Shown here in pieces: positions 28,040 to 42,193 of a DNA stretch of 64,000 nucleotides (the stretch's first letter is position 1; every line of letters starts with the position of its first letter). A program made the translations under genes and the position numbers. The notes below the pieces were generated by a model that was given only the letters and a program-made list of their open reading frames with translations, made no database searches and was not told the DNA's origin. Source of the DNA: a virus; IMG/VR virus record IMGVR_UViG_3300021440_000014, positions 108,011-172,010 of that record; one strand, given 5' to 3'.

Positions 28040-29186
28040 TTTTGTTTAAAATTTTGCTTAATAAAATTGTCAAGAATCTTGTCTGAAATTTTCTGATATG
28101 TATTCTTCACCAAATCAAATACTAATTCTACAAAATCATGAGAGAAATTCCACAGCAAACTATATGGCCAAAAAATTATCCATCCTGTTATCTCAGATTT
28201 AATCCTTCCGGGTTCGAATAAGTATCTTACTTCATTTAACTCGTCTAGATTTTTAATTCTATGCTTGGTTATTTCTTGTTTTACCCACGCTCTCCAACGC
28301 CAAATTGACCAAACGACACCAATGATAAAGTAAAGAAATCCAAATATCAGATAATTCTTAATGTAAGTGGGCTTAAAATATTCCAAATTCGAAAGTAATA
28401 AGACAAACCCCACTACTGACGGGAAAAGGAAATATTGTTTTTCTGCGGCGAAAAATGCTAAAATGCTAAAAAGCAAAAATAACAACCAAAAACTAAACGA
28501 CCATAATTCAAATAATCCAAAAATGTAACTCATATTTAAGATGATACTCTCTTTTTAAGATTTGTCAAACTCTCTCTCTTTCCTGTATTTTTTAGGACGG
28601 TCAAATATCCGACTTGCTGCAAGGAATTTAAGTATCCCACATATTCTAAATAACCATACATACTCCAAAACAATGCCGAAGCTTTCTTTGCGTAAGATAC
28701 TTGATCTTTAGGTTCTCCAAGTCTATAAAAACACAAATACTTCTGACTTTCTGGCAGAAGAAAATTTAATACAAATGATGCGTCTTTCTCGCACATTTTT
28801 TTATAAAATTCTGTCATTTCGTCGTAAAATTTTCTATCTACTTCAGAGCATCCTTTAAGACGCTCTTCTTTTATTTCGTCGGGCTGTATTTTTTGCGCGG
28901 CTGAATCTAAATCTTCTTGCTGCTTTTCTGTTAGTTTTTCTTTCATGGTTGTTCTTGTTACGTTTATTTGTAAATCAGCTAATTTAATTTGACTATTTCC
29001 TTCAGAGTTAAATAAGTAAGCATAACTGCAAATCTCTGAAAGGGCGTCTATAGTACAATGAGCACAAACAAAGTCATGCTCCTTAAAACCCATCTTACTC
29101 CATAACTCATCAGATGTCCATAAGAATATATTGGCTCCGCGCTCTTCCCCACATTTTTTACAATGAAAATTATCCATAAAAATTAG

Positions 29187-29258
29187 TGCCTCCAATCAGA
29201 CTCGCACTGATATATTACGACTTATGAGATCGTCCCATTAACATTATGGTATAGAGGC
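29187..29258 (-). tRNA. tRNA-Met/Ile2 (CAT)
   Basis: Cloverleaf; ACGAT-CTCATAA-GTCGT; no encoded CCA. Confidence 0.75.
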
Positions 29259-29266
29259 TTCTATAA

Positions 29267-29845
29267 TCAATTTGGGTTAGTATGATGATCGTTTAATTCC
29301 GGTATAGAGCAATTAATAGGTTTAGCATCCATAATTGTCTTTATTTCCTCAAAAGAGTAAGGCTCGAAACTGTTTCCATCGACACCAACATCTAAAATTT
29401 TACCTAAAACCTTACCTTCCTTGCGGACTCCCGCCATTCCATAGTGGCTGTGTCCGCACAAGCACCATGCGGAATGATGTTTTTTGTTCCATGTAACTTG
29501 AGCATAATGGTTTAAAGTTATGTCTTGATCGTTAATTTTAATCTCATGATATCCTTTATGGGCTGAATAAAACTTATGACGATTCCTCCAAGTCAATTTA
29601 TCATGATTGCCTGAGACTAAAACAATCAAACCGTTCAGTCTTTGAAAGAACATGTCAAACTCCATATCGTTTCTTCCAAAGACAAAATCCCCCAAAAAAT
29701 ATGCTAAATCTTGTTTACCTACTTTTTTATTCCATCTTTCTATAATTGCTTCATTCATTTCTACAACATTCTTGAAGGGACGGTTAGAATAGCGCAAAAT
29801 GTTACTATGATTAAAATGGAAATCCGAACTGAAAAACACTTTCAT
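29267..29845 (-). CDS. calcineurin-like metallophosphoesterase
   Basis: SDFHFNH, LGDF, GNHD, GHSH, DVGVD. Confidence 0.9.
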   Translation of the reverse strand: MKVFFSSDFHFNHSNILRYSNRPFKNVVEMNEAIIERWNKKVGKQDLAYFLGDFVFGRNDMEFDMFFQRLNGLIVLVSGNHDKLTWRNRHKFYSAHKGYHEIKINDQDITLNHYAQVTWNKKHHSAWCLCGHSHYGMAGVRKEGKVLGKILDVGVDGNSFEPYSFEEIKTIMDAKPINCSIPELNDHHTNPN

Positions 29846-29893
29846 ATATATAATTCCATCTTAACATATTTTTATTTTCTGTCAAAGAAAATC

Positions 29894-30063
29894 AAGATAC
29901 TTTCAATTTATACGGTATTTTATTCCTCCGCTCTATTTTTATGTCTTCACGACTCGCTATGACAGACGTTTTTATAGCGGGCATCGCCGCTCCCTTTTAT
30001 CAGGTTTTGTTCGCCTTATTTGGCTTCATGTGTTAATTATGTTATTGCTGCTGTAAGTATCTT
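29894..30063 (-). ncRNA. AGA-N6-CAG scaffold RNA, copy 1
   Basis: AAGATACTT/AAGTATCTT stem, ACAGCAGCAA; starts 8 nt after GTGTAA. Confidence 0.7.
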
Positions 30064-30083
30064 ACTCTTAATTACACTAAAAC

Positions 30084-30182
30084 TAGAAGCTGATTTACAG
30101 TTTACTCTGGGCACTTTTTGTGTGATTACCGTCACGATGAAGCCGGATTACCGGCGTTTATTTTTTTTGCTGTAAGCTTCTA
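30084..30182 (-). ncRNA. AGA-N6-CAG scaffold RNA, copy 2
   Basis: TAGAAGCT/AGCTTCTA stem, ACAGCAAAA. Confidence 0.7.
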
Positions 30183-30188
30183 AAAATC

Positions 30189-30263
30189 TGGAAGCACGTA
30201 TCAGAATTGCACTGATCTATTCGATTTTGCAGATCGACGCCTAATCTACTCGGCCAACGCGCT
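30189..30263 (-). tRNA. tRNA-Cys (GCA)
   Basis: TCGAT-CTGCAAA-ATCGA; TCCA end. Confidence 0.85.
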
Positions 30264-30368
30264 ATTAAATTGGTGACTAATAAATCATTATAGCTGCTAC
30301 CACACCCCAATATTAAAGTGTTTTTGCCTTATTTAAAGTGTCCTACACTCACTATAACTTACTTAAGT

Positions 30369-30442
30369 TGGTATCCCTTGACGGTTTTGCGCCGTCGTCT
30401 CGGACTTGAGAGGCCCGCGATTTACTATTAATCTAAAGGGAC
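30369..30442 (-). tRNA. tRNA-Glu (CTC)
   Basis: CGGGC-CTCTCAA-GTCCG; ACCA. Confidence 0.85.
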
Positions 30443-30808
30443 ATTAAAATGTCAATTTTCCCAAAATTTGTTTTCGTAATTTTCCATCTCTTTTCTCCAA
30501 TTCTGTTCGATTATAGCCATTTTATCGTCTAACTCTTTATTTCTTTTAACTATAATTTCAGGAGTTAGAGTTTTTGCGAATTTTACTGTTTCATTAAAAT
30601 CTAAACTTAGATAAGGATGCATTGCATCACTAAGTCTAGGATCTCCTGTAAAGAAAATTCCACTTCTAAAGAGTGCCCATTTGTCTTTCTCTTTGAATTT
30701 ATACTCTATACAGTAATATTTTGCATTGTAATGACTTACTCTTACTCTAAATTTATCTTGTATATTCTCTGGCTTTGCTTTGAATTTTTTAAAAAATTTG
30801 AACATAAA

Positions 30809-30883
30809 TGGTCAGGTGGGTCGGTTACGCTCCGACTCAATTTCATTCACAGTGAAAGAGGCTACTATTACATCACGCACTTG
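30809..30883 (-). tRNA. tRNA-His (GTG), mismatched acceptor stem
   Basis: TTTCA-CTGTGAA-TGAAA; CCA. Confidence 0.7.
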
Positions 30884-32349
30884 TTTTTAATTATAAAACT
30901 CTACTTCAACCCCAAGCTTCTTAAAATTGTTCTTAATGGCTTTTTCTTTTTGTTCATCTGAGGTATTCTCGTTATCATTAATTTCCATTAAACGATTTGC
31001 AATTTTCGAATTTCCATTTAGACTGCACAGTTCAGGAAGCATATAAGCTTCGTTCTCTTTAACTAGGTCCGAAGGCTCGTATTTATTTTCAATATATTTT
31101 TTATTAATTCCTCGCGCCAATGAGTAAAACCCAAGGCAGCATTTCATACCTTTGCAGTCCAACAGTTCCGCTTCATAGCTAAAATCAGTATGCTTACCTT
31201 TTTGGAAGCGCATCCACTCTTTACGGTTAATTCTAAATTTCTTAATTGGAGATTTTTTCATATAGTAGAGATTAACACATTTTTGAAGAATGTCAATTCG
31301 ATTCTCTATAGGGCGCAAACTGTAATTTGTTAGATTCAAATTTTAAATAATTAGAGTATTTTGAAATACCCAAATCAACAGTAACAGAATTAAAAGTATT
31401 GGCAGTTTCTTTACTTTCTAAAACTTCCATTCTTTTTTCCATTTCCCTAATTAAAGCCTTATTTATCCAATTCATTTCTATTAAAATGTAGGTAGAAGAA
31501 GCAAAAACTAATAAAGCCATTAAACTTAATGAAGTTTCGTATTTTATCATATTGACATTATCTATATTTTATCCATAAAGTCAATAAAAAACGGCAGATT
31601 TCTCTGCCGTTCGCTAATATAATTGAATTTGCTATTATCTAAATTTATAATCTACATTAATCGCAATATAATTATTTTTGCCTGTTACGTTTTGCGGCGT
31701 ATTGTAATTAATAAATGGAGAATCACTATATCCAGTATAAGAAATAAATCTCATTCTTGGCGAAGCGGCAGTGTTTAAATGAGAGCCGGAATGTAGAATT
31801 TTAGTTCCTATCTCGAAAAAGAGAGAATCTCCATCATTCGCCATTCCTGTTCCTACAATCCCATTAAAGTATTGTAGTCTATAGCCCTGAGAATCATATT
31901 TTGAAAAATGAGAGGTATCACTCTGATCGCCAGAATACAAAACTTTTCTTAAATTTCCGCTCTGGTCGCAAACTTTAATAACTAAAGAATTACAGTGCCC
32001 GCTATTTATACCTGTTGGGCCTTTTGGAATGAAATATCCAGTAAAAATACCAGAATTCAAAAATTGAGAGCCGCTAAATACTTTATTGTATTTAAATACT
32101 GATGCAATTATCCTTTTATTAATGTCCTGCCCTGTATTTACAGGATGAAAAATTAACCTCTCAACTCCCGTTGTCGTCGATGGACTTGAATAGCAATCGT
32201 ATTTTAAGTTTGCTCCACCTGTGTAATACCAAAAGCTGTTTGGCGCAGAATAATTTTCATTTCCGCTTATTAGATTTTCGGAAAAATATATTTTAGTGCT
32301 CATATCACTAATTAATACACTAACTCTTGAGTTTTATTCGTTTTTTTAA

Positions 32350-32424
32350 TGGCAGGCATGAAAGGACTTGCACCTTTTTATAATCGCTTCAGAGGCGATC
32401 CGATAACTATTCTCGCACATGCCA
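32350..32424 (-). tRNA. tRNA-Gln (CTG)
   Basis: ATCGC-CTCTGAA-GCGAT; GCCA. Confidence 0.85.
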
Positions 32425-34160
32425 ATCAAAAATTCTTCAAATAAGGTTTAATATGTTTTGGTGTTTTCTGGTTTATTAATTTAGGATTCGTTTCCAAAAT
32501 TAACTTTTGCCCACTTTTAGTTTTCTTGAGCTTTTTAAGAATTACTTCTGCTGTTAAATCGCACCCATCAATATGGATTTTACTTCCCTTTCTGTCGCTC
32601 GGATCTAATAACTGCATTGTTCGGGCGGCTCTATACAATTGATTCATCGCCCAATTTAGTAATTCTTCGTCATTCATAATTCACCTCAATATATTTAACA
32701 CCAATCCGTTTTCCCTGTCAGCATATCCTTTAGTCTTTTCGCTGACTCTGCCGCGTCTTCTCTGGTTGGAATCCTTAGTCCAGCAAAGATACTTCCCTCT
32801 GGAAATGGCGTTAATCCTTCGTAAGGATTTTCTTCTGGAATATGAATCGGCTCCTTAGTAACCGAATCAATAAGTATTGTCTTATGTGTTTTCATTTTTA
32901 CTCTCTATTTTAACGCATTCGTATTTGTCTGTTAGTAAGCTAGTTATATTTGAAATTAACTCTGAGCGAACAACCCATTCATCAATTTCAATTCCGCTAG
33001 GTGGGTTTTTTATAAAGTCTGCCTCAACAATCTGCGCAGCCTCAATAACAGAATCCGCCAAGATTCTATAATTCATTCTCTCTATCTTGCTTATATCTTT
33101 AGAACATATTTTATCTGTTTCCACGATATATAACCCAAAACTTTTGCTATATTTATATTCTTTCGTAAATCAAATACTATAATCTTCTCCTTTAAATTGG
33201 TAATCTTTAATAAACTCAACCACTGAAGGTTCCAGTTCTACTCTATGACATATAGGATAAGAATACTCTATATTATGAGATTTTACCCCATTGAATACTA
33301 ATTTTTTTCCCTTGTCATTAGTTTTCATGTATCTATAGATTTCGTTTATCCATCTTTTACATCTTTCGACTTTATCAGAAGAATTCGCAAACTGAATCCA
33401 ATTTTCCCCATGATTTACTCCATAACCCTCGGAAAGGCATTCAAACACTCCTTGTAAATACGCGATTTTCTTTTCAATCGTATCGAAAAACTCTTCTTTG
33501 AGTTTACCAGTTATACGTCCTGCCGTAAATCCTTCTCGGCCCGGTGGACTCCAATTAAATATATCGTAGTAATCTGGCTTTTCTTTACTGTTATCATGGA
33601 AAGGAGTATCGTAAAAATCTCCCGCCTGAGCCGCTGATTTGATTGCTTTGACATTCATAAATTAGAAACACCCAACCTTAATCACGTTTAATAAGGTAGT
33701 CAGTCATTTCTGCTTCGGTGGTGCGGCTGTTAGAGTCCCGTCCGGGGTAGTTGTTAAACTTAGTCTTCATTCTAAATATATCATATTGAAGAAAGCCAAT
33801 TATTAGCCACATTATGATTAATAAAATTACTAATACTTTAAATTTTAGATCTTTCATGTTAAATTAATTACCAAACATTCGTCGCCGCATATTTTCTATA
33901 TTGTTATTCAAGCGGTTGCGGTTTCTCGCATTCTTGTCCACCCTCAACAGGGGATTGTTTGGTAAAATTACTTTTTATTGCCTCCTCCCAAAAACAACAA
34001 TAAAATTTATTTAAATCCTTTTTAAAAGGATCTCTATGGTTAATTATTCCCATGTCACATGCGTTTGTTCCGTTTTTGAAATAAACCCTAAACTTGCAAT
34101 TAGTGCAATTCTTGTCCATTAATTTAATATAGATTATATTTTATATATGTCAAGTTAAAT

Positions 34161-34241
34161 TGGCCCCGGCGATAGGATTTTCACCTACATTTTCAGATAA
34201 TTACGATTAAAACCTTCAAAGGGTTCCTCGTCTACACCGGA
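34161..34241 (-). tRNA. rewired tRNA-Gln (TTG), D-arm displaced
   Basis: TCCGGTG/CGCCGGG-GCCA; GAACC-CTTTGAA-GGTTT; T-arm. Confidence 0.7.
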
Positions 34242-34310
34242 TTTGATCATTCGCCCTGCTCACACACGTAAACTTACAAACTGGCAATACAGCTTAGGGC
34301 TACTAAAATG

Positions 34311-34382
34311 TGGGTTAGTTCGGTACTGCCCCGAACTCTCTCAGCTTAAGAGGCTGGACTTCGCTTTCAAAGTTTCTAACCC
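34311..34382 (-). tRNA. tRNA-Lys (CTT)
   Basis: CAGC-CTCTTAA-GCTG; GGGTTAG/CTAACCC. Confidence 0.8.
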
Positions 34383-34414
34383 ATGAAAAAATTAGTGAGA
34401 GGAATTGAAAAATC

Positions 34415-34465
34415 AAGATGCTATTCCGCCCCCTCTCAGGGATTTTTATTAACTGTAGGCGTCTT
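34415..34465 (-). ncRNA. AGA-N6-CAG scaffold RNA, copy 3
   Basis: AAGACGC/GCATCTT stem, ACAGT. Confidence 0.6.
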
Positions 34466-34470
34466 TAAAG

Positions 34471-34551
34471 TGGTGGGCAAGGAGGGATTTGAACCCTCAT
34501 TTTATTCCAATTATGCACCCATCGCTTAGAAGGCGCGGCCATTACAAGCCC
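34471..34551 (-). tRNA. rewired tRNA-Arg (TCT), D-arm displaced
   Basis: CGC-CTTCTAA-GCG; AATTGGA after the anticodon arm; TTCAAAT T-loop; ACCA. Confidence 0.7.
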
Positions 34552-34606
34552 AAAATTATGTAACTCATTTACTATGTCTTCTTTTTCTAAAATGTCAAAT
34601 TCTAAA

Positions 34607-34828
34607 AACTAGAACCAATTCTAGGTCAGCCCTGCGCTATGGGTGCCTTGTATTGCAATACCGCTTAGTTCCCCATAGACTACTTATTAAAAAATAAGTA
34701 ATACGGGCATTCCGCCCGCCATCGGATTCTCGCACCGACCCAATCGATTTTCAACCATAATTTTCAGTCTTTCGGCTTTCGCTTCCTGATCCGTTGTGGT
34801 CTGGTCTACTCCTTTTTTGATTCTAGTT
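34607..34828 (-). ncRNA. ~220-nt structured RNA candidate
   Basis: 12-bp terminal stem AACTAGAATCAA/TTGGTTCTAGTT; several internal GC hairpins. Confidence 0.55.
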
Positions 34829-34833
34829 AAAAT

Positions 34834-34909
34834 TGGTGCTGCCGAAAGGAATCTCACCTTCAGTCTTCTCCTTCGTAGGGAGTGGCTTTAATAATTTAGC
34901 TACGACAGC
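34834..34909 (-). tRNA. tRNA-Arg (ACG)
   Basis: CTCC-CTACGAA-GGAG; ACCA. Confidence 0.85.
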
Positions 34910-34923
34910 ATTAAATAGTTTTC

Positions 34924-35018
34924 TGAGGATTTCACAAGGCGATATCCAACGGGGTTCTACCGTCTTTTAAGCTCGCTCAGTTCCCCTTTTTCCTGCGGTA
35001 ATTAAGGAGTCTATCTCA
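34924..35018 (-). ncRNA. ATAGAC...GTGAAATC motif RNA, copy A
   Basis: TGAG-ATAGAC ... GTGAAATC-CTCA. Confidence 0.55.
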
Positions 35019-35257
35019 TTCCACTAGGTTAACCGAAATTTTATTATTGACTTATCATCCAATCTGGTATTGAATCTTCATTTGTCATTAGCCAAGCAAA
35101 ATCCTCTTCAAAAGAGTATAGGTAATTTTGATTTAATGTCCTGTGCTTGGCTCTAAAAACTGTTCTTCCTTTATGTAAAAACGGCTTACCTCTAAACTCA
35201 AGACAGAGGAACCTTTGTTTTATTTCCTCTGAGATGTTATTGTTCATAAATTTAAAT

Positions 35258-35337
35258 TGGTGCATCTGATAGGATTTGAACCTACATTATTCCAATTATA
35301 CGCTAAACTCTTTAGGAAAGAGTGCTATTACAGATGC
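35258..35337 (-). tRNA. rewired tRNA-Arg (CCT), D-arm displaced
   Basis: GCATCTG/CAGATGC-ACCA; ACTCT-TTCCTAA-AGAGT; AATTGGA after the anticodon arm. Confidence 0.75.
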
Positions 35338-35341
35338 ATTT

Positions 35342-35418
35342 TGGTTCGGGATACACAGCCTTTCACTGTTGCACAACGTAGTCATGAGCTACGGCGTCTA
35401 TACTTGCGCCAATCCCAA
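35342..35418 (-). tRNA. atypical tRNA (CAT)
   Basis: CGTAG-CTCATGA-CTACG; irregular T-arm; ACCA. Confidence 0.55.
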
Positions 35419-35842
35419 ATTATTTTAAACTATTATGCAAAGATTTTTCTACCCATTTAGGAGAAGCATCTAATACGTCTTGTATTTCGCTTTTCACTAA
35501 GAGTTCATCTTTTATATCCTCGCTCCACATTTTGATAGTTAGATTAACTAAACTTTTGCCCCATATAGCCCTTTGAACTGTTATAGGATCTTTGCAGGTA
35601 ACTTCTTTTACTACAGACCTACCGTAAGTATCATAAAGATAATAACATTCTTTTGGATCAAGTCCATTAGAATCTAACTTAAAGTAACACATGCATAGAT
35701 AATGTCTTACTTCTTTCTCTGTATATTTCATTAAATAGTTCCACTCTTCTTCAAATTTTTGAGAGAACTCTTTTGGTATTTTTATATTGCGTTTAGCTGT
35801 GTCATATTTTCTTACTCCTGTTTTTTTTTGTTTTTACTAAAT

Positions 35843-35930
35843 TGGTGGTGCCGGTTGGATCTGCCCCAACTATTCCATAAGAATTACGAGATTTACAGTC
35901 TCGCGCCTGATCTAATTTGGCTTCGTCACC
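35843..35930 (-). tRNA. tRNA-Tyr (GTA)
   Basis: CGAGA-CTGTAAA-TCTCG; long variable arm; ACCA. Confidence 0.85.
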
Positions 35931-36265
35931 TTAAAATAAATTCGAACAAGAAACCCCTCTGATGTCCATAGGCGTAATGTCACATACTCATTTCTTGTTC
36001 TCAACACTTAACTTCTCCATTCTTACTCCCGCCACTTCAGTTTGGCCCTATTTAAGTGTTTTAAATTACTTGGAAATCTAAATGCATTTTAAAGGATACT
36101 TTTAGTTCCGTAGGTATCCAACCATCTAATACTTTAATTTGAGATAAAGAATACGTTGTATAAAAAACTTCTCCATAAGTTAGAAAAGATTTGTCTTCCA
36201 CTATTTTTCCTGTTAAAGTTTTGAATTTATTGTCTTTTTTTAGAGTATACCACATATTTTTAAAA

Positions 36266-36333
36266 TGGAGCCACACACGATATCGCAATCGTCACGCCTT
36301 ATTACGAGTAAGGACTAGGTGCTTACGTGCGGC
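36266..36333 (-). tRNA. degenerate tRNA-Thr (CGT)
   Basis: CCTTA-CTCGTAA-TAAGG; poor D-arm; TCCA. Confidence 0.55.
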
Positions 36334-36399
36334 AGAAGAGGATCTGAAAATTAATTCAGTTTACAATGATTGGACCCATGTTTTCTTGACCTCTTTAAA

Positions 36400-36475
36400 T
36401 GGCGAGCTATGAGGGAGTCCCACCCTCTTAATTTCCGCAGACAACGGAATGATTCCAGTCTTCATCTTATAGCCC
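36400..36475 (-). tRNA. tRNA-Asp (GTC)
   Basis: TTCCG-TTGTCTG-CGGAA; GCCA. Confidence 0.8.
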
Positions 36476-37120
36476 ATAAATTTTATTACTTAACTAACTA
36501 ATCTCAAGTGTTTTAAAGTCATAAAAACAAAATGTAACGTCTTTAACCTCATCAATAGACGTTAGATGATGATAAAACCTTTTATCTGATTCTTTTGATT
36601 TTTCTCTTACATAATTTAGATGAAAGACCTTTCCGCATACGGTATATATTTCCGTAACTAAATCTTCTCTCCATATTATGTTTTTAACTTCATACTTCAT
36701 ACATATTAGATTATCTAATCGCTTTTTGCCTCACGTTATTGTTAACGTCTATATCCATTCGCGTTTTGGATTCGATGTAAATTATTCTTTATCTAAAATA
36801 AAACTCTCTTCTTCGTTTTTACCAACAAACTCAATACAATCATTCAGTAATTCAATTAGTTGCTCTTTCTTAAGCTTTAATGTAACCCATCCATTCAAAT
36901 GTTTTGTATCTATGGCTAATACTGTTATTTTACAGCCGTCTTGCTCTTCGAAATCTAATAAAGCCGCCGTTACGAATCCAGATAAACCAAAGCTTTTAGA
37001 ATTTTTATTAAATAATAAACCCATTCCTCTCAATTGCTCGAAGCTCTCAAAAGAGTTGATTATATCTGATATTTTCTTTTTTTTCATGTAAAAGATTACT
37101 ACATTTTTTTAAAAAAATCA

Positions 37121-37224
37121 AGAGGATTTCACACGTAGTTCCTAATTCAGCGTCCGGTTACGCTCCGAATCTTCTGAGCCGCGCCAGCTTGCTTCTATCA
37201 CAACCCGCTAGTTAGTCTATCTCT
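37121..37224 (-). ncRNA. ATAGAC...GTGAAATC motif RNA, copy B (tRNA-like cargo)
   Basis: AGAG-ATAGAC ... GTGAAATC-CTCT; internal TTCGG-AGCGTAA-CCGGA T-arm. Confidence 0.55.
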
Positions 37225-37490
37225 CATTTCTAGAAATATTCCTGCGCTGTTTTTACGCCGACAGGTAGCGGCTTGGGATCACTTCTACCAAGCTCATGGA
37301 CTTCATGAATATTACATTGTCCACTTTTTCAACCGATTTCACGGTTAAGATTTTTAAATTCTATTAGACAGATGGACCTCGAACCCATTTCGACACATAT
37401 CGAACAGCCAGCCTTGCTGTCTAAAATTAATTTGCTCCTCAGTGCTTGCTTTTGCACGTTGCCGCTTTTGACTTGGAGCATTTAGCTAAA

Positions 37491-37577
37491 TGGCGGATAA
37501 GTTAGGTGCTGCCCCCAATTCCCGTAGGAACGATGAGTTTTCAAGACTCTCACGAAAGCTGTTTCGTTTACTTATCC
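37491..37577 (-). tRNA. tRNA-Ser (TGA)
   Basis: GAGT-CTTGAAA-ACTC; long variable arm; GCCA. Confidence 0.85.
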
Positions 37578-38332
37578 TTTAAAATTTTATATCTTTTTTG
37601 CCAAAAGCCGGGATAAAACCATTTTATACCAAGACTTTTTAAATGCTTTCTTAATCCTGTATGGCTACAACCTAATTCATCCTTTATTTTTTCCAAGGAT
37701 TTTTCTTGAACCATTTTTTCTAAAATTTCCTTATCTGGCCAATTAATAATCTTTTGAATTTTACGAGTCTCTATCCCTTCGGCTATTAATCTTTTCATAA
37801 CTCCAGAAGGAGAACATCCAACAATTTTCGCAATTTGTATGGTAGATTTCTTTTGTATTAAATATAAATCTTTAAGATCAAATTTAGACCAATCGTATTT
37901 GCCTTTCAAACTCAAAGCGCAAAACGTAGAACAAGTTTTATTCCAAAAAGGTTTTTCTTTATTACAAATAGGACAATTATTTATCATTGACTTAGATTTA
38001 TCAATTAATTCTATCCTTTTGTAGTCTACAAAAGATTCATTAAATCTACTTATGGAATCTGGAATAATTCTTAAATTATCGTGGACTTCTCTATGACAAT
38101 TAGAACATAATAATACGCATTTTCTTAATTCTATTACTAAATCTTGCCAATTTTTAGGGTTTGCTCTTATAGAACCAAAGCTAAACTCTTTTTCGCTGGG
38201 ATCTAAATGATGTAGTTCTAATGCGTTATTACATTTATTATAATCACAAGTTCCGCATTTACCGCCAAATGCATCTATTATTCTTTGTTTGCTTCTTTTA
38301 CGCCAATTTTTAACATCTTCCGCTCTGCTCAT
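37568..38332 (-). CDS. HNH endonuclease inserted in the tRNA array
   Basis: GGKC..C.Y, ALELHHLDP, KCVLLCSNCHREVH; C-terminal HTH-like repeats. Confidence 0.85.
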   Translation of the reverse strand: MSRAEDVKNWRKRSKQRIIDAFGGKCGTCDYNKCNNALELHHLDPSEKEFSFGSIRANPKNWQDLVIELRKCVLLCSNCHREVHDNLRIIPDSISRFNESFVDYKRIELIDKSKSMINNCPICNKEKPFWNKTCSTFCALSLKGKYDWSKFDLKDLYLIQKKSTIQIAKIVGCSPSGVMKRLIAEGIETRKIQKIINWPDKEILEKMVQEKSLEKIKDELGCSHTGLRKHLKSLGIKWFYPGFWQKRYKILKDK

Positions 38333-38368
38333 ACTTTATGTTACACTTATCATGTAACATATAGAAAT

Positions 38369-38444
38369 TGGCTGCTAGAACTGGATTCAAACCAGTATCG
38401 ACGATCTTAACAGGATCGGGAATTATCAATTATTCGATCTAGCA
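38369..38444 (-). tRNA. tRNA-Asn (GTT)
   Basis: CGATC-CTGTTAA-GATCG; GCCA. Confidence 0.85.
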
Positions 38445-38451
38445 TTTAAAT

Positions 38452-38531
38452 TGGTGCAAGTGGTGGGTAACGCTCCCACACGAATAGTCTGGTTAAAAGC
38501 CAGTTGGACGTACTTTGGTACCTTCACTTGC
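38452..38531 (-). tRNA. tRNA-Lys (TTT)
   Basis: CTGG-CTTTTAA-CCAG; GCAAGTG/CACTTGC-ACCA. Confidence 0.8.
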
Positions 38532-38600
38532 ATAAATAACATGAATGTTTTGAAGTCCGTCTAAACTTCGTCGGACGGGACACATTATCATTCACTAAAA

Positions 38601-38674
38601 TGGTAGCCTATGCCGGTAACGCTCCGACGAAGCAATCTTATCAGGATTGTATTATACTTTTTAATTAATAGGCT
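38601..38674 (-). tRNA. tRNA-Ile (GAT)
   Basis: CAATC-CTGATAA-GATTG; ACCA. Confidence 0.85.
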
Positions 38675-38788
38675 ATAAAAATTAATTGAGCACTAAAGCG
38701 AATACCCAAAAGGTCTAACTTTAGAATATTCAATTGGAGAGACTCGTCCTTCATTAGCCGCCGCCTTCGATGGGCACGTTGCTCAAAT

Positions 38789-38874
38789 TGGTAGCCGTAA
38801 AAGGACTTGCACCTTCAAGTATTAGAAGATTTTAAGTCTCCCGGTTCTTCGTTTCCCTTTCAATACATACGGCC
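38789..38874 (-). tRNA. rewired tRNA-Leu (TAA)
   Basis: GGAGA-CTTAAAA-TCTTC; 5' insert GTATTG pairs with TAATAC in the variable region. Confidence 0.75.
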
Positions 38875-39086
38875 ATTAAAGATCTAAAAGTTTCAAAGCT
38901 TTAAGAAGTAACTTACTTCCCTTTTTCTTTTTCTCTCTATCAGTCAGACTTTCTTTTAGTTTCGACTTAGGAAGATATTCGTCTCCAGCCCAATTATAAA
39001 TTTTTGCCTTTTCCCAATTTGTAGCTTCTTCTTTTAATATTTCTATAACAATCTTTTTTATTTTAACTTCTAGTTGGTTCATAAAA

Positions 39087-39170
39087 TGGTCGCCATGACA
39101 GGAATCGCACCTGCAAAACTTCAGTTTTTGAAACTGGATGCTGTCCTATTCGCAATTAAGTCACATGGCG
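39087..39170 (-). tRNA. rewired tRNA-Leu (CAA)
   Basis: CAGT-TTCAAAA-ACTG; 5' insert GACTT pairs with AAGTT. Confidence 0.75.
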
Positions 39171-39177
39171 TTTTAAA

Positions 39178-39252
39178 TGGTAGGGTTAGCCGGATCTGCC
39201 CCGCGCCTCTATAGGATGAAAGCCTATTATGCTTCTACTGCACCATAACCCC
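39178..39252 (-). tRNA. tRNA-Glu (TTC)
   Basis: ATAGG-CTTTCAT-CCTAT; ACCA. Confidence 0.8.
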
Positions 39253-39260
39253 TGAAAAAC

Positions 39261-39380
39261 TAGATACATTTTTTTGCTTGTCGGACGTTTTGCCACTAAA
39301 CTACCCACGTCAATGACGTGGACACGAATCGAACGTGCGCTTTCCGATTGGATTTGCTTTTTGTCTGCTGGATGTATCTA
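39261..39380 (-). ncRNA. AGA-N6-CAG scaffold RNA, copy 4, with YrlA-like permuted tRNA module
   Basis: TAGATACAT/ATGTATCTA; TCGGA, GCACG-TTCGATT-CGTGT, CCACGTC-ATT-GACGTGG, GTTT-AGTGGCA-AAAC, TCCGA. Confidence 0.8.
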
Positions 39381-39384
39381 AAAA

Positions 39385-39459
39385 TGGTAGCCCGTGAAGG
39401 AATCGCACCCTCTCTTCTTCCTTGTAAGGGAAGCTCGCTCCTGTTACAATCAACGGGCT
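39385..39459 (-). tRNA. tRNA-Val (TAC)
   Basis: CTTCC-CTTACAA-GGAAG; ACCA. Confidence 0.85.
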
Positions 39460-39464
39460 ATAAA

Positions 39465-39539
39465 TGGTCAGCACGAAAGGTAACGCTCCTTCTTGAACTT
39501 GATCCCAAATCAAGTGCCTCACTTTTAGGCTACGTGCTG
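39465..39539 (-). tRNA. tRNA-Pro (TGG)
   Basis: CTTGA-TTTGGGA-TCAAG; ACCA. Confidence 0.85.
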
Positions 39540-39684
39540 TATAAAGTTTCAGGTCTTTCCTTGTGTCAATCATCATCGGGTTGGTTTCCAACTTACGGAG
39601 CGATTTGCCGCTAGATGTTCTAAATTATTAGAGTATGCAGCGATTATGCTATCATACCCTTCTAAGAGTTTTTATTACTCAAGA

Positions 39685-39756
39685 TGGTGGACCTGTCGGA
39701 TACTGCCTCCGAACGAAAATCTTGCAAGGATTCCCTTATGCCTTCATAACAAGCCC
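39685..39756 (-). tRNA. tRNA-Ala (TGC)
   Basis: GAATC-CTTGCAA-GATTT; G3.U70; ACCA. Confidence 0.8.
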
Positions 39757-40064
39757 ATAAATTACTTATAACTATTTCCCAACTTCTCCCTCCAATTTTC
39801 ATTATAATTTTGATGCGCTTCACATTGAGCTTTTGCTTGCTCTAAAGTGATAGCTGGCTGTTTTTTGACAGCCTCCATTGTATCAATTAACCATTTAGGA
39901 GGAGGAGGAATCCTATTCATTAACTCTTTAAATCTTCTAAGATGTTTTCTTTTTCTTTTTTCGAAATTGATCATAAATTGTGGACTGGAAGGATACCCTA
40001 AATCCTTATTCTAGGCTTCGTAGGATTACTACGTCCTCGCTTTGGTGCAGCCCCATAAAAATTC

Positions 40065-40150
40065 GTTGGATTTCACTTTCGATGGCTCAATTGATTTCGC
40101 GTTACTCCCGCGCACCATCTGCGTTCCCTGTAGCTCTCAGGTCTATCAAC
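40065..40150 (-). ncRNA. ATAGAC...GTGAAATC motif RNA, copy C
   Basis: GTTG-ATAGAC ... GTGAAATC-CAAC. Confidence 0.55.
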
Positions 40151-40170
40151 AAGAACAAAACCTACTTCGT

Positions 40171-40239
40171 CAACAAATTGGATTTGCGCCAACTTCCTCG
40201 GCGTTTGCCGATGCTTTACTACATAAGCTATTTATGTTG
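40171..40239 (-). ncRNA. tRNA-like RNA with a 4-nt loop in place of the anticodon loop
   Basis: D-arm GCTT-ATGTAGTA-AAGC, TCGGC-AAAC-GCCGA, T-arm GTTGG-CGCAAAT-CCAAT; no CCA. Confidence 0.55.
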
Positions 40240-40331
40240 CCTTCTGTTTTTATTCTCTAAAATTGGTGGACCTTATCGCCGCCCTTGCGTCCGAATTTCA
40301 CGGAGTCTCCCCGAAGGAAGTCCTTATTAAA

Positions 40332-40422
40332 TGGCGGAAGCATAGAGAATTGCACTCCAACCGGCTTTTGACCGGACAATTTTAGCAAAATTGCGTAACA
40401 ATCTAATATTTACCTTACTTCC
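40332..40422 (-). tRNA. tRNA-Ser (GCT)
   Basis: CAATT-TTGCTAA-AATTG; long variable arm; GCCA. Confidence 0.85.
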
Positions 40423-40432
40423 AATTAAATAA

Positions 40433-40519
40433 TGGAGCCAACGACAGGTATCGCGCCTGCATACACCTTTCGGTTCTCGCTTTACAAAAGCGGTGAATTA
40501 CTTGTCTATCCACGTTGGC
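40433..40519 (-). tRNA. tRNA-Thr (TGT) with long variable arm
   Basis: CGCT-TTTGTAA-AGCG; ACC-GAAA-GGT extra arm; TCCA. Confidence 0.8.
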
Positions 40520-40526
40520 ATCAAAT

Positions 40527-40608
40527 TGGTGCTCCAACCCCGACTTGCACAGGGACGCTTTCGCACGAAGTTCTAAGCTTCGCATGTCTTCTATTTCATC
40601 ATTGGAGC
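40527..40608 (-). tRNA. tRNA-Leu (TAG)
   Basis: CGAAG-CTTAGAA-CTTCG; ACCA. Confidence 0.85.
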
Positions 40609-40615
40609 TAAAAAT

Positions 40616-40688
40616 TGGTTGCGGTCGCGAGAATTAAACTCGTCCTTAAGCTTATGAAACTTACGTGCAATCATTACACTTCCCCGCA
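40616..40688 (-). tRNA. tRNA-Met (CAT), initiator-like acceptor
   Basis: TGCGGGG 5' end; TAAGT-TTCATAA-GCTTA; AACCA. Confidence 0.75.
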
Positions 40689-40703
40689 TTTTAAAATTAA
40701 AGC

Positions 40704-40765
40704 TAGATAGTTGGGATTTTCAATTCCCTATTTTGTGAAAATAAATTTTATACTGCACCTATCTA
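40704..40765 (-). ncRNA. AGA-N6-CAG scaffold RNA, copy 5
   Basis: TAGATAG/CTATCTA, GCAGT; two hairpins with loops TTCACAA and TTGAAAA. Confidence 0.65.
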
Positions 40766-40778
40766 AACTATGAAAACC

Positions 40779-40836
40779 TAGATCCATTTTTTGTCATTTG
40801 AATAATGAGTTTTTTAATTTTTGCTGTTCGGATCTA
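40779..40836 (-). ncRNA. AGA-N6-CAG scaffold RNA, copy 6
   Basis: TAGATCC/GGATCTA, ACAGCAAAA; TCAT-TATTCAA-ATGA. Confidence 0.7.
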
Positions 40837-40841
40837 TAAAA

Positions 40842-40916
40842 TGGCCCGACAAGTTGGTAACGCTCCAACCTCCACTGTTCTTCAGACAGTTGCTAATCTA
40901 TCTCAGCTATTGGCGG
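40842..40916 (-). tRNA. tRNA-Phe (GAA)
   Basis: ACTGT-CTGAAGA-ACAGT; CCA. Confidence 0.8.
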
Positions 40917-40920
40917 AAAA

Positions 40921-40995
40921 TGGAGCACACGGAGGATTTTGAAACCTCGACGTTCACGTTGGAAGCGTGACATTCTGCCTCTGAATTACGTGTGC
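40921..40995 (-). tRNA. tRNA-Gly (TCC)
   Basis: TCACG-CTTCCAA-CGTGA; TCCA. Confidence 0.9.
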
Positions 40996-41005
40996 TTAAA
41001 TTGAC

Positions 41006-41055
41006 TAGATACGCTTTTTTCCATAAACAAGGATTTTGACTGCTGCACGTATCTA
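41006..41055 (-). ncRNA. AGA-N6-CAG scaffold RNA, copy 7
   Basis: TAGATACG/CGTATCTA, GCAGCAG. Confidence 0.7.
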
Positions 41056-41065
41056 AAAACTTTTC

Positions 41066-41434
41066 TTAAATATTTTTTGGCGTTCTGTGTGATAGTGTAA
41101 AAAAAGCTTTTCTCACCAAGCCTTCCCTTACTTCTACTTCACAAGTTCCAATAAACTCATAAGATTTATAACCTGATTGCGAAGATCCGTCAATATCTAA
41201 AAACGTCCCTTTCGCATAAATTTTTGTTAAACCTGTTTTTTTAGGATTTACAGTTACATTATAATTTGAACCATCAAAATTTGACGATAGTATTTCTATT
41301 ACTTCTTCGTCTTCTACTGTCCAAATGGCATTCTCATTTTCATTAATGAAAACTATATCGTTTTCGGCTGTCATGAATTTTACTTGCAAAACTGCCGTTT
41401 CATCCTTGGCGATTGTAAACTTTTGAATATCCAT
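41066..41434 (-). CDS. Ig-like (beta-sandwich) domain protein, putative
   Basis: W...D.EV, G.T.I.A, CEVEV pattern. Confidence 0.45.
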   Translation of the reverse strand: MDIQKFTIAKDETAVLQVKFMTAENDIVFINENENAIWTVEDEEVIEILSSNFDGSNYNVTVNPKKTGLTKIYAKGTFLDIDGSSQSGYKSYEFIGTCEVEVREGLVRKAFFTLSHRTPKNI

Positions 41435-41458
41435 GTAATATATTACACTTTAAATAAC

Positions 41459-41516
41459 TAGATACTTATTTTTCCTTTAACAGAGGAGTTTTTTTATTTT
41501 TTGCTGTTCGTATCTA
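41459..41516 (-). ncRNA. AGA-N6-CAG scaffold RNA, copy 8
   Basis: TAGATAC/GTATCTA, ACAGCAAAA; TCCT-CTGTTAA-AGGA. Confidence 0.7.
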
Positions 41517-41519
41517 AAA

Positions 41520-41596
41520 TGGCACGGCGAACGAGAGTCGAACTCGTCTATTGCTGGTTTGGAATCAGTTGCTTCACTCTACTTAGCTATCGCCGT
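41520..41596 (-). tRNA. tRNA-Trp (CCA)
   Basis: TTCCAAA loop; ACGGCGA/TCGCCGT-GCCA. Confidence 0.85.
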
Positions 41597-41603
41597 ATAA
41601 AAT

Positions 41604-41678
41604 TGGAGCGGGTAGCGGAATTTGCGTCCGCTTTGAAAAATTGGCAATTTCTCGTAATACTACATATACCATACCCGC
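41604..41678 (-). tRNA. tRNA-Gly (GCC)
   Basis: GCGGGTA/TACCCGC-TCCA; TTGCCAA loop. Confidence 0.85.
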
Positions 41679-41874
41679 ATAAAATCAAATAAATTAAATG
41701 GAGATAAAAACCTCAACATCTATCCTTATGGATTAGGGTTTTTTAACCTTCGTTGGTAGCATTCTTATTCCTAAGATTACCGGCGTCTCCGCTTCCCTAC
41801 GGCTCGCCTCTACGGTTTTGATAACGCTCAAAATTTCTAAAAGCAAAATTTAAACTCGTTCTTACTACTCTTCC

Positions 41875-41902
41875 ATCTTACCAAGTTTTTCGTTTTTGTC
41901 AA
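41875..41902 (-). promoter_or_regulatory. sigma70-type promoter heading the tRNA array
   Basis: TTGACA ... TGG-TAAGAT. Confidence 0.55.
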
Positions 41903-41919
41903 CTCTCTATTTTTCCAAC

Positions 41920-41951
41920 AAAAAACCGCCCTTCTTTTCAGAAAAGGCGGT
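41920..41951 (-). terminator. intrinsic terminator
   Basis: CCGCC...GGCGG followed by TTTTTT. Confidence 0.65.
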
Positions 41952-42193
41952 TAATTCCCCACGAATTTCCCACCCTCCCTAGCAAAAATCTCCATTTGTC
42001 GCTTGGAGGCGACTTGCTTTAACGGACGGTTCTGAAACCCAATATCTCATATCTCTAATAGAATATACACTCTATTTTAAAAAATGTCAAATATTTTTAA
42101 AACTTTCTTCTAAATTCGCTCTACCTTTATCAAGATATAGCAAAAAGGGGCAGTTTTTAGCTGCCTCCCGTTAATTATTTATTGTTTTCTAGA

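What the first reader, a model, noticed from the sequence alone, without database searches (positions are those of the whole stretch)
34161..35337. Topologically rewired tRNAs: D-loop moved behind the anticodon arm, with covariation
Seen: Gln(TTG), Arg(TCT) and Arg(CCT) have only 7-8 nt between acceptor and anticodon stems. That strand pairs with a strand 3' of the anticodon arm (ACGA/TCGT, ATGGCC/GGTGCAT, ATAGC/GCGTAT), followed by a D-loop-like segment. Both Arg genes have AATT-GG-A with TTC T-loops, keeping the Arg identity base A20. The Gln gene has AATT-AT with a TGA T-loop, so the 19-56 pair switches from G-C to U-A. Inference: the L-shape is kept with altered backbone connectivity.
Basis: partly seen in the sequence, partly recalled or inferred. 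Interest (0 to 1): 0.75.

Follow-up and report, generated by a model that had tools for sequence, protein, structure and literature searches.

The report
Three rewired phage tRNA genes
Three genes in this phage's tRNA cluster encode two arginine tRNAs and one glutamine tRNA whose D-arm parts come in a different order from the universal cloverleaf; the arginine ones belong to a widespread, mostly unannotated phage family, and the glutamine one carries matched changes in the two loops that form the tRNA elbow.

Summary
On the minus strand lie tRNA-like genes for Gln(UUG) 34241-34161, Arg(UCU) 34551-34471 and Arg(CCU) 35337-35258. Each has a 7-bp acceptor stem, a T arm, a 7-nt anticodon loop and an encoded CCA, but no D hairpin. 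After U8-A9 a 10-nt strand runs straight into the anticodon loop. Its first bases pair with the strand just before an A14-A15...G18-G19-like segment that lies 3' of the anticodon arm.

The two Arg genes belong to a large phage family: 38 members from one search and 31 from an independent one, including cultured Alishewanella, Pseudomonas, Streptomyces and E. coli phages. The displaced helix covaries perfectly (62 of 62 Watson-Crick pairs in an alignment-free test; 0 of 10,000 shuffles reach this). The base after GG is A in all Arg members and U in Ile and Met-type members.

The Gln gene has no homologue. It has the same layout and pairs AU in the displaced loop with UGA in the T loop, a combination also seen in a canonical tRNA of this genome.

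Charging and 3D shape are untested. This scan has reported the Arg/Ile class before on other DNA. I found no paper describing it.

The parts
34161..34241 (-). tRNA-Gln(UUG), rewired layout, 81 nt including the encoded CCA. Acceptor 34241-34235 / 34171-34165 (U1.G72), discriminator G 34164, CCA 34163-34161.
   Evidence: With acceptor and T stems fixed, the minimum-energy fold gives exactly the proposed structure. R2 30.6 bits. Rfam tRNA 21.8 bits.
34228..34231 (-). Gln: 5' strand ACGA of the displaced D-stem-like helix, after the connector U8-A9-G.
   Evidence: Pairs with UCGU at 34206-34203. Four Watson-Crick pairs at the register seen in the family.
34209..34227 (-). Gln: anticodon arm. The stem is GGAACC/GGUUUU, the loop CUUUGAA, the anticodon UUG at 34219-34217.
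   Evidence: The loop context C32 U33 ... A37 A38 is the same as in the canonical Gln(CUG) gene at 32350-32424.
34189..34206 (-). Gln: 3' strand UCGU (34206-34203), then the displaced D-loop-like segment AAUUAUCUGAAAAU (34202-34189), ending in U48.
   Evidence: AAUUAU is also the D-loop core of the canonical Arg(ACG) gene at 34834-34909. That gene shares the UGA-type T loop.
34172..34188 (-). Gln: T arm GUAGG-UGAAAAU-CCUAU.
   Evidence: Identical to the T arm of Arg(CCU) except at loop positions 55 and 56 (U-C becomes G-A).
34471..34551 (-). tRNA-Arg(UCU), rewired layout, 81 nt including CCA. 5' strand 34542-34533, anticodon 34530-34528, 3' strand with three single-base bulges 34525-34513, D-loop-like AAUUGGAAUAAAAU 34512-34499, T arm 34498-34482.
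   Evidence: R2 80.1 bits. 82-83% identical to genes in Alishewanella phages Slicko01 and Slickus01. Its acceptor stem has two U.U mismatches, at 5-68 and 6-67.
35258..35337 (-). tRNA-Arg(CCU), rewired layout, 80 nt including CCA. 5' strand 35328-35319, anticodon 35316-35314, 3' strand 35311-35298 (UUA bulge and G bulge), D-loop-like AAUUGGAAUAAU 35297-35286, T arm 35285-35269.
   Evidence: R2 85.5 bits. Rfam tRNA 34.5 bits, with the D arm deleted and 18 nt inserted after the anticodon arm. The homologue L130:4379-4454 has AUG/CAU where this gene has AUA/UAU.

Best explanation
These are three working phage tRNAs, reading AGA, AGG and CAA, built on a non-cloverleaf core.

In a normal tRNA the order is acceptor, U8-A9, D-stem strand 10-13, D loop 14-21, D-stem strand 22-25, anticodon arm, variable loop, T arm. 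Here U8-A9 runs directly into a 10-nt strand that plays the part of positions 22-31. The anticodon loop follows. The returning strand then first closes the anticodon stem and next pairs as '10-13'. Only after that come the D-loop bases A14, R15, G18, G19 and position 20, then U48 and the T arm. The D stem therefore closes around the anticodon arm instead of forming its own hairpin.

Inferred: the D-stem/anticodon-stem stack of about 10 layers and the D-loop/T-loop elbow are rebuilt with different backbone connections. If so, RNase P, EF-Tu, the ribosome and the host ArgRS (through A20 and C35) or the host Gln enzyme would still accept the RNA.

Shown: the genes, their layout, family-wide covariation, and isotype-specific conservation. 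Inferred: transcription within the minus-strand tRNA array, charging by host enzymes, and decoding. Why phages favour this design is unknown. Escape from host nucleases or enzymes that read the ordinary D arm is my speculation.
For: 1. Family and spread. BLAST and pattern scans find the Arg(UCU) form in several places. These are Alishewanella phages (annotated tRNA-Ser), Pseudomonas phage M1 (unannotated), Streptomyces phages (Mildred21 'tRNA-OTHER', others unannotated), E. coli phage Bas94 (unannotated), a 635-kb uncultured phage, and 20 IMG/VR loci.

2. A family model separates the two layouts. Covariance model R2 scores rewired genes at 41.7 bits or more and canonical tRNAs at 37.5 bits or less across 23 phage records.

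3. Covariation on 37 distinct members. The acceptor stem, the T stem and three anticodon-stem pairs covary. The two core pairs of the displaced helix are paired in 72 of 72 cells, with 20 double changes. Shuffles give 65.6% paired and 3.4 double changes; 0 of 500 reach the observed values.

4. Independent, alignment-free sample. It was anchored only on U13-A14..G19 plus the T arm and gave 31 distinct genes. All 62 pairs are Watson-Crick, in 8 dinucleotide combinations. Shuffles give 26.2 +/- 3.6; 0 of 10,000 reach 62.

5. Core nucleotides are kept. U8-A9 occurs in 37 of 37 members. A14-R15, GG and U48 are conserved. One member has G15 together with C48, which fits the Levitt pair.

6. Identity base. 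The base after GG is A in all 35 Arg members of the first sample (33 on the automatic tally, 2 read by hand) and in 16 of 16 Arg members of the second. It is U in 2 of 2 and in 14 of 15 Ile/Met-type members. A20 is the main ArgRS determinant in bacteria (PMC9976931).

7. Length. The 5' strand is exactly 10 nt in 34 of 37 members, equal to canonical positions 22-31.

8. Codon use. AGA is 63% and AGG 18% of the phage's Arg codons, and CAA is 64% of its Gln codons. The phage encodes no ArgRS or GlnRS.

9. The Gln gene. It has the same layout, with U1.G72, G73 and the same anticodon-loop context as the canonical Gln(CUG) gene. Its T arm matches that of Arg(CCU) except U55-C56 to G55-A56. Its displaced loop has A-U where Arg has G-G. 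Across this genome, D-loop GG goes with T-loop UUC, AG with NGC, AU with UGA, and GA with UUU.
Against: Thermodynamic folding recovers the short displaced helix in only 2 of 37 members. RNAalifold does not predict it. The case for the helix rests on covariation alone.

The middle of the long helix is irregular, and its bulges differ between subfamilies.

The window's Arg(UCU) copy has two U.U mismatches in the acceptor stem. It also duplicates a canonical Arg(UCU) gene at genome 88677-88753, so it could be decaying.

The Gln gene is a singleton. No homologue turned up in phages, IMG/VR or metagenomes. Its R2 score of 30.6 bits lies within the range of ordinary tRNAs. The elbow argument for it therefore rests on one gene plus a within-genome rule that has one exception (Trp, AG with UUC).
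Confidence: 0.75

Rival explanations
1. These are mitochondria-style D-armless tRNAs. The connector simply lengthens the anticodon stem, the segment after it is a passive linker, and there is no D-loop/T-loop elbow. The RNA would be floppy or Y-shaped, like human mt-tRNA-Ser(GCU).
For: [quoted passage not shown] Rfam aligns Arg(CCU) as a tRNA with the D arm deleted.
Against: The 'linker' is the most conserved part outside the T loop. A14-R15, GG, an isotype-specific base after GG, and U48 are all kept, and the T loop stays canonical. The mitochondrial example has lost both features. G15/C48 and the Gln AU/UGA changes fit tertiary pairs.
Confidence: 0.08
2. These are tRNA mimics that are not used in translation, for example baits for host anticodon nucleases or ligands for the phage's Ro60-like protein. 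The same cluster is rich in tRNA-like non-coding RNAs.
For: The cluster holds a tmRNA, a DUF2828/vWA Ro-like gene and several non-tRNA structured RNAs (scan notes). The phage already has a canonical Arg(UCU) gene.
Against: The genes have full acceptor stems with a discriminator base and CCA, intact 7-nt anticodon loops with U33 and A37, and the ArgRS determinants A20 and C35. Their anticodons match the phage's commonest Arg and Gln codons. Gln(UUG) and Arg(CCU) are the only phage genes for their anticodons.
Confidence: 0.08
3. One or more of the three window genes are decaying copies that merely descend from the rewired family. The candidates are the Arg(UCU) copy and the Gln singleton.
For: The Arg(UCU) acceptor stem has two U.U mismatches, and a canonical Arg(UCU) gene exists elsewhere in the genome. 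The Gln gene has no known homologue.
Against: The U6.U67 mismatch recurs in the Alishewanella and Pseudomonas phage homologues, so it is tolerated or selected. Arg(UCU) scores 80 bits on the family model. Every helix of the Gln gene is intact, and its two elbow changes are matched rather than random.
Confidence: 0.06
4. The D arm has been moved as an intact hairpin into the variable-arm position (stem CAU...AUG with the GG loop), and the 5' connector stays single-stranded.
For: CAU before the GG segment and AUG before the T stem can pair in 84% of cells.
Against: That 84% equals the shuffled expectation of 84.5%, so there is no covariation. When the C changes, its supposed partner G does not (11 of 36 unpaired). 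By contrast, the partner in the 5' connector always changes with it. This hairpin would also consume the first T-stem pair.
Confidence: 0.03

Closest known systems
Canonical class I bacterial and phage tRNA-Arg and tRNA-Gln (Rfam RF00005), for example this phage's own Arg(UCU) at genome 88677-88753 and Gln(CUG) at window 32350-32424
   Same: Shared features are a 7-bp acceptor stem, a 5-bp T stem with a UUCRANU loop, a 7-nt anticodon loop, U8, A14, R15, G18-G19, A20 (in Arg), U48, the discriminator base and CCA. The D-loop sequence AAUUGGA is almost the same as in the canonical Arg(UCU) gene (AAUUGGAUA).
   Different: There is no D hairpin. The strand equivalent to positions 10-13 and the D loop lie 3' of the anticodon arm, so the anticodon arm is nested inside the D stem. 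The variable loop is replaced by bulges in the returning strand. ARAGORN misses the genes, and two of the three fall below the Rfam cut-off.
D-armless mitochondrial tRNAs, for example human mt-tRNA-Ser(GCU) (Kuhle et al. 2022, PMC9427863)
   Same: There is no D hairpin, and the connector after the acceptor stem pairs with bases 3' of the anticodon stem to give an extended anticodon helix.
   Different: The mitochondrial tRNA has lost the D-loop bases, has a remodelled T loop and has no tertiary core. The phage genes keep a canonical T loop and a full set of D-loop bases downstream. They occur in phages of bacteria, not in organelles.
Circularly permuted tRNA genes of the red alga Cyanidioschyzon merolae (Soma et al. 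2007; from my own knowledge, not checked here)
   Same: The order of tRNA segments in the gene differs from the textbook order.
   Different: In the alga the whole gene is permuted, and processing through a circular intermediate restores a normal cloverleaf. Here the 5' and 3' ends are normal, and the rearrangement is internal and would persist in the mature RNA.
Mitochondria-like suppressor tRNAs selected in E. coli (Bourdeau et al. 1998, PNAS; from my own knowledge, not checked here)
   Same: They show that bacterial translation can use tRNAs without a normal D arm and with extended anticodon stems.
   Different: Those are laboratory constructs without a displaced D loop. The phage genes are a natural, conserved family.

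Membership tests
Canonical tRNA (Rfam RF00005 cloverleaf) | 7-bp acceptor stem, with a 5-bp T stem and 7-nt T loop directly 5' of the acceptor 3' strand | tested here: met
   The Arg(UCU) acceptor stem has 5 of 7 pairs, with two U.U mismatches.
Canonical tRNA (Rfam RF00005 cloverleaf) | Anticodon arm with a 7-nt loop, U33 and a purine at position 37 | tested here: met
   The loops are CUUUGAA, CUUCUAA and UUCCUAA. The Arg(UCU) stem has only 3 contiguous pairs before a bulge.
Canonical tRNA (Rfam RF00005 cloverleaf) | D hairpin between position 9 and the anticodon stem | tested here: not met
   Only 7-9 nt lie between the two stems. Rfam deletes the D arm in its alignment. ARAGORN finds no gene.
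Canonical tRNA (Rfam RF00005 cloverleaf) | Score at or above the Rfam gathering threshold of 29 bits | tested here: inconclusive
   Arg(CCU) scores 34.5 bits and passes. Arg(UCU) at 26.8 and Gln at 21.8 do not.
Rewired phage tRNA class (as defined here by model R2 and the two samples) | U8-A9, then a 10-nt (rarely 11-nt) strand up to the anticodon loop | tested here: met
   The strand is 10 nt in both Arg genes and 11 nt in Gln, which has an extra G as in 3 of 37 family members.
Rewired phage tRNA class (as defined here by model R2 and the two samples) | Bases 2-3 of that strand are Watson-Crick paired with the two bases before U13-A14 | tested here: met
   The pairs are UG/CA in Arg-UCU, UA/UA in Arg-CCU and CG/CG in Gln. 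In the family 72 of 72 and 62 of 62 cells are paired.
Rewired phage tRNA class (as defined here by model R2 and the two samples) | A14-R15-(Y)Y-G18-G19 segment after the helix, U48 before the T stem, and a UUC T loop | tested here: inconclusive
   Both Arg genes meet this. Gln has A14-A15-U-U-A-U with a UGA T loop, a matched variant seen in no other member.
Rewired phage tRNA class (as defined here by model R2 and the two samples) | R2 score above the range of canonical tRNAs (over about 40 bits) | tested here: inconclusive
   Arg(CCU) scores 85.5 and Arg(UCU) 80.1, which meets the feature. Gln at 30.6 bits does not.
Mitochondrial-type D-armless tRNA | Loss of the D-loop/T-loop interaction bases and a non-canonical T loop | tested here: not met
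   GG (or AU matched to UGA) and a canonical T54...A58 loop are kept. Compare PMC9427863.
Permuted tRNA gene (whole-gene circular permutation) | The 3' half is encoded upstream of the 5' half, with the mature ends internal to the gene | tested here: not met
   The acceptor 5' and 3' strands flank the gene in the normal order, and CCA lies at the 3' end.
Functional (charged, decoding) tRNA | Mature RNA that is aminoacylated and used by the ribosome | not testable with these tools
Only indirect support is available: identity bases and codon use.

The most novel reading that the evidence does not exclude
Bacteriophages carry a natural, widespread tRNA architecture that is not a cloverleaf. It is a local permutation in which the D stem closes around the anticodon arm while every tertiary contact of the L-shape is preserved. 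The scaffold can be reassigned between amino acids: Arg, Ile, Met-type and, in this phage, Gln. It also co-evolves with the T loop: here G18-G19 with U55-C56 has become A18-U19 with G55-A56. It may exist because it escapes host enzymes or defence nucleases that read the ordinary D arm.
Probability: 0.55. Interest if true: 0.88.

Novelty: new variant of a known kind. Interest (0 to 1): 0.8.

Why it matters
Outside animal mitochondria, the cloverleaf is treated as universal for tRNAs, and gene finders are built on it. A conserved family of phage tRNAs with a re-threaded core would have several consequences.

- The L-shape could then be reached through a different backbone topology.
- Many phage genomes, including cultured model phages, would be under-annotated for Arg and Ile tRNAs.
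- It would give a natural test bed for what ArgRS, RNase P, EF-Tu, modification enzymes and anti-phage tRNA nucleases actually read.
- It would offer a new scaffold for orthogonal tRNA engineering.

This window adds the first Gln member I could find. It also adds a matched pair of changes in the displaced loop and the T loop, which is the most direct sequence evidence available for the elbow contact.

Tried and rejected
- My first IMG/VR pattern had the wrong fixed spacing, so its empty result says nothing. A corrected but narrow pattern also found nothing.
- Relatives of this phage found through DNA polymerase (45-58% identity, 19 records searched) carry only a few canonical tRNAs and no rewired ones.
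- Two neighbouring small proteins have no relatives in IMG/VR.
- Homologues of the 162-aa neighbouring protein from the large protein collection lie in unrelated contexts without tRNAs.
- The one IMG/VR phage with a related DUF2828 gene (316 kb) has only canonical tRNAs with GG/UUC elbows.
- A metagenome pattern for the Gln gene found nothing. BLAST of the Gln gene against cultured phages gave only a 21-nt chance match.
- Minimum-energy folding and RNAalifold do not predict the short displaced helix. I therefore do not use them as support.
- The alternative CAU...AUG hairpin was tested and rejected.
- Ten literature searches and look-ups found no description of a D-armless or re-threaded phage tRNA. 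Subscription and older papers were not searchable.
Full report
**Setting**

The window is bases 108011-172010 of a 172,010-bp IMG/VR phage record rated complete, with 34% G+C. Window positions 29,000-42,000 hold a dense minus-strand array of about 30 tRNA genes, nearly all with an encoded CCA. The array also holds a tmRNA and other structured RNAs. A second, small cluster of five textbook tRNAs lies outside the window at genome 88.5-93.6 kb. It includes a canonical Arg(UCU) gene.

**The observation**

Read on the minus strand, the three genes are Gln(UUG) 34241-34161, Arg(UCU) 34551-34471 and Arg(CCU) 35337-35258. Each has:
- a 7-bp acceptor stem (Arg-UCU has two U.U mismatches),
- U8-A9,
- a T arm placed directly before the acceptor 3' strand,
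- a discriminator base and CCA,
- a 7-nt anticodon loop with U33 and A37.

None has room for a D hairpin. After U8-A9 (U8-A9-G in Gln), 10 nt lead straight to the anticodon loop.

The returning strand pairs with all ten of these bases, with its extra bases bulged out:
- Gln: ACGA/UCGU, then an AA bulge, then GGAACC/GGUUUU.
- Arg(CCU): AUA/UAU, a G bulge, GC/GC, a UUA bulge, then ACUCU/AGAGU.
- Arg(UCU): AUG/CAU, a G bulge, GCC/GGU, then G.U and CGC/GCG, each preceded by a single-base bulge.

Directly after this helix come AAUUGGA... (both Arg) or AAUUAU... (Gln). A U stands before the T stem.

ARAGORN finds none of the three genes, even at its low threshold or in mitochondrial mode. The Rfam tRNA model gives 34.5, 26.8 and 21.8 bits against a cut-off of 29. 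It aligns Arg(CCU) with the D arm deleted and 18 nt inserted after the anticodon arm.

**The Arg genes belong to a large family**

BLAST of the region hit a gene in Alishewanella phages Slicko01 and Slickus01 that is annotated tRNA-Ser. It also hit an unannotated stretch in Pseudomonas phage M1. Further searches found the same design in:
- Streptomyces phages (Mildred21 'tRNA-OTHER'; MulchMansion, Daubenski and Moab unannotated),
- E. coli phage ManiMatter_Bas94,
- a 635-kb uncultured phage.

A core pattern found 20 loci in IMG/VR. The same pattern found only three in one genome each of 185,579 prokaryote species. All three are on 4-10-kb contigs of metagenome bins. My guess, untested, is that these are phage contigs placed in those bins.

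I built a covariance model from 28 members (R2). Across 23 phage records it scores rewired genes at 41.7-92 bits and ordinary tRNAs at 37.5 bits or less. It also found paralogues with other anticodons. The resulting alignment has 37 distinct members: UCU 26, UCG 4, ACG 3, CCU 2 and GAU 2.

**Test of the fold**

On that alignment the acceptor stem, the T stem and the three loop-proximal anticodon-stem pairs covary as expected. The two core pairs of the displaced helix show these types, with none unpaired:
- first pair: U-A 25, C-G 8, A-U 3;
- second pair: G-C 27, C-G 5, U-A 3, A-U 1.

Shuffles give 65.6% paired and 3.4 double changes, against 100% and 20 observed; 0 of 500 shuffles reach the observed values. 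Sliding the partner columns destroys the signal. The outermost position is usually a U.U mismatch (26 of 37).

That alignment was fitted to the model, so I drew a second sample with a pattern anchored only on U13-A14..G19 and the T arm. After removing ARAGORN-positive canonical tRNAs, 31 distinct genes remained with U8-A9. Their anticodons are UCU 10, GAU 8, UAU 6, ACG 4, CCU 1, CAU 1 and UCG 1.

Without any alignment, bases 11-12 pair with the two bases before U13 in 62 of 62 cases. All are Watson-Crick, in eight dinucleotide combinations. Shuffles give 26.2 +/- 3.6; 0 of 10,000 reach 62.

One of these genes, L130:4379-4454, is a homologue of the window's Arg(CCU). It has AUG/CAU where the window has AUA/UAU.

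The rival idea is a D-like hairpin, CAU...AUG, sitting in the variable-arm position. It pairs in 84% of cells, but the shuffled expectation is 84.5% and there is no covariation. I reject it.

As an honest limit, minimum-energy folding recovers the short helix in only 2 of 37 members, and RNAalifold does not predict it. For the Gln gene, folding with the acceptor and T stems fixed gives exactly the proposed structure.

**Why this looks like a re-threaded core rather than a lost D arm**

- The strand between A9 and the anticodon loop is 10 nt in 34 of 37 members. That is the number of canonical positions 22-31.
- U8-A9 is invariant.
- The segment after the helix starts A-A (35 of 37) and contains GG.
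- A U precedes the T stem.
- The single member with A-G at the start has C instead of that U. This is what the 15-48 Levitt pair predicts.
- The base after GG is A in every Arg member: all 35 in the first sample (33 on the automatic tally and 2 read by hand) and 16 of 16 in the second. It is U in 2 of 2 and in 14 of 15 Ile/Met-type members.

A20 is the main bacterial ArgRS determinant (Giege and Eriani 2023, PMC9976931). The displaced segment therefore behaves as a D loop that the synthetase reads.

Human mt-tRNA-Ser(GCU) also has an extended anticodon stem. But it has lost these bases and any tertiary core (PMC9427863).

From textbook tRNA geometry (my own knowledge, not computed), U8 sits next to the 13-22 pair, A21 sits next to the 15-48 layer, and positions 43-45 sit next to position 10. 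The new connections 9 to 22, 43 to 10 and 21 to 48 are therefore short.

**The Gln gene and the elbow**

This genome has an unusual rule linking the D loop to the T loop:
- D loops with GG go with UUC T loops. This holds for the five genes of the first cluster, Gly-UCC, and the two rewired Arg genes.
- D loops with AG go with NGC T loops. All 14 such genes whose D loop could be parsed contain AG and none contains GG.
- Asn has GA with UUU.
- The canonical Arg(ACG) gene at 34834-34909 has AAUUAU with UGAGAUU.
- Trp is the one exception (AG with UUC).

The rewired Gln gene has AAUUAU in its displaced segment and UGAAAAU in its T loop. Its T arm is otherwise identical to that of the rewired Arg(CCU) gene. 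Relative to its nearest paralogue it thus shows the double change G18-G19/U55-C56 to A18-U19/G55-A56.

This supports contact between the displaced loop and the T loop. It is one gene, and I found no homologue.

Its Gln assignment is supported by the UUG anticodon and by U1.G72 and G73. It also has the same C32-U33...A37-A38 loop context as the canonical Gln(CUG) gene.

**Function**

AGA and AGG make up 63% and 18% of the phage's Arg codons, and CAA makes up 64% of its Gln codons. Gln(UUG) and Arg(CCU) are the only phage genes for those anticodons. The phage encodes no ArgRS or GlnRS/GluRS, so charging would depend on host enzymes.

The most likely reading is that these are working tRNAs, co-transcribed with the array. 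Alternatives I cannot exclude are non-decoding mimics, and decay of the Arg(UCU) copy, which has a weakened acceptor stem and duplicates a canonical gene.

**Novelty**

Searches of the open literature found no description of such phage tRNAs. A 2020 review of non-canonical tRNAs does not mention phages at all. Public annotations either miss these genes or mislabel them.

Earlier notes of this scan describe the same Arg/Ile/Met-type class on other DNA many times. One of those notes is flagged as partly failing a later check, and I could not find out which part failed. I therefore limit my claims to what I tested here.

None of the notes that these look-ups returned mentions a Gln member or the matched elbow change.

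Noticed in passing
window 29186-41678, minus strand: About 19 tRNA genes of the cluster have G at T-loop position 55 (loops UGC, CGC, AGC or GGC instead of UUC), and AG instead of GG in the D loop. Asn has GA with UUU, and Arg(ACG) has AU with UGA. This looks like a genome-wide remodelling of the tRNA elbow, with 19-56 kept Watson-Crick.
   Followed up: partly
genome 88552-93635 (outside the window; L005): A second, plus-strand cluster holds five textbook tRNAs (Met, Arg-UCU, Leu-UAA, Lys-UUU, Ile-UAU) that score 56-71 bits on Rfam. This contrasts with the odd tRNAs of the main cluster. Its Arg(UCU) gene shares 25 of 28 bases of T arm plus acceptor 3' end with the rewired Arg(CCU) gene.
   Followed up: partly
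window 34310-34382 and 35342-35418, minus strand: Only ARAGORN's mitochondrial mode finds two further tRNA-like genes, Lys(CUU)-like with a GGCAGUA T loop and Met(CAU)-like. The Lys-like gene has no encoded CCA.
   Followed up: no
window 5402-5594 and 5712-5778, minus strand: More tRNA-like elements lie far from the main cluster. One is a 117-nt match to the Rfam tRNA model at 29.4 bits, which ARAGORN reads as Leu(GAG) with a 23-nt insert. Two more have UUCGAUU- or UUCGAGU-type T arms.
   Followed up: no
window 24590-25028, minus strand: A full-length tmRNA gene (Rfam 99.5 bits) is encoded by the phage.
   Followed up: no
window 42194-45807: A vWA-domain gene and a DUF2828/DUF7788 (Ro60-like) gene on the minus strand are separated by a LAGLIDADG homing-endonuclease gene on the opposite, plus strand.
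   Followed up: no
L068 (E. coli phage ManiMatter_Bas94, PQ850617.1 59419-59500) and L042 (Pseudomonas phage M1, OP714164.2 7398-7474): Unannotated rewired Arg(UCU) genes sit between annotated protein genes in cultured, laboratory-tractable phages. In Alishewanella phage Slicko01 the homologue is annotated tRNA-Ser.
   Followed up: partly
window 34551-34471; L041 3004-3082; L042 2966-3042: A U6.U67 mismatch in the acceptor stem recurs in the Arg(UCU) genes of three unrelated phages. This suggests it is tolerated or selected rather than accidental.
   Followed up: no
L099, L102, and many loci: The Ile(GAU), Ile(UAU) and CAU members of the class share a conserved UUGAAA or UAGAAA bulge between the anticodon stem and the displaced helix. 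The main Arg(UCU) family lacks it.
   Followed up: no
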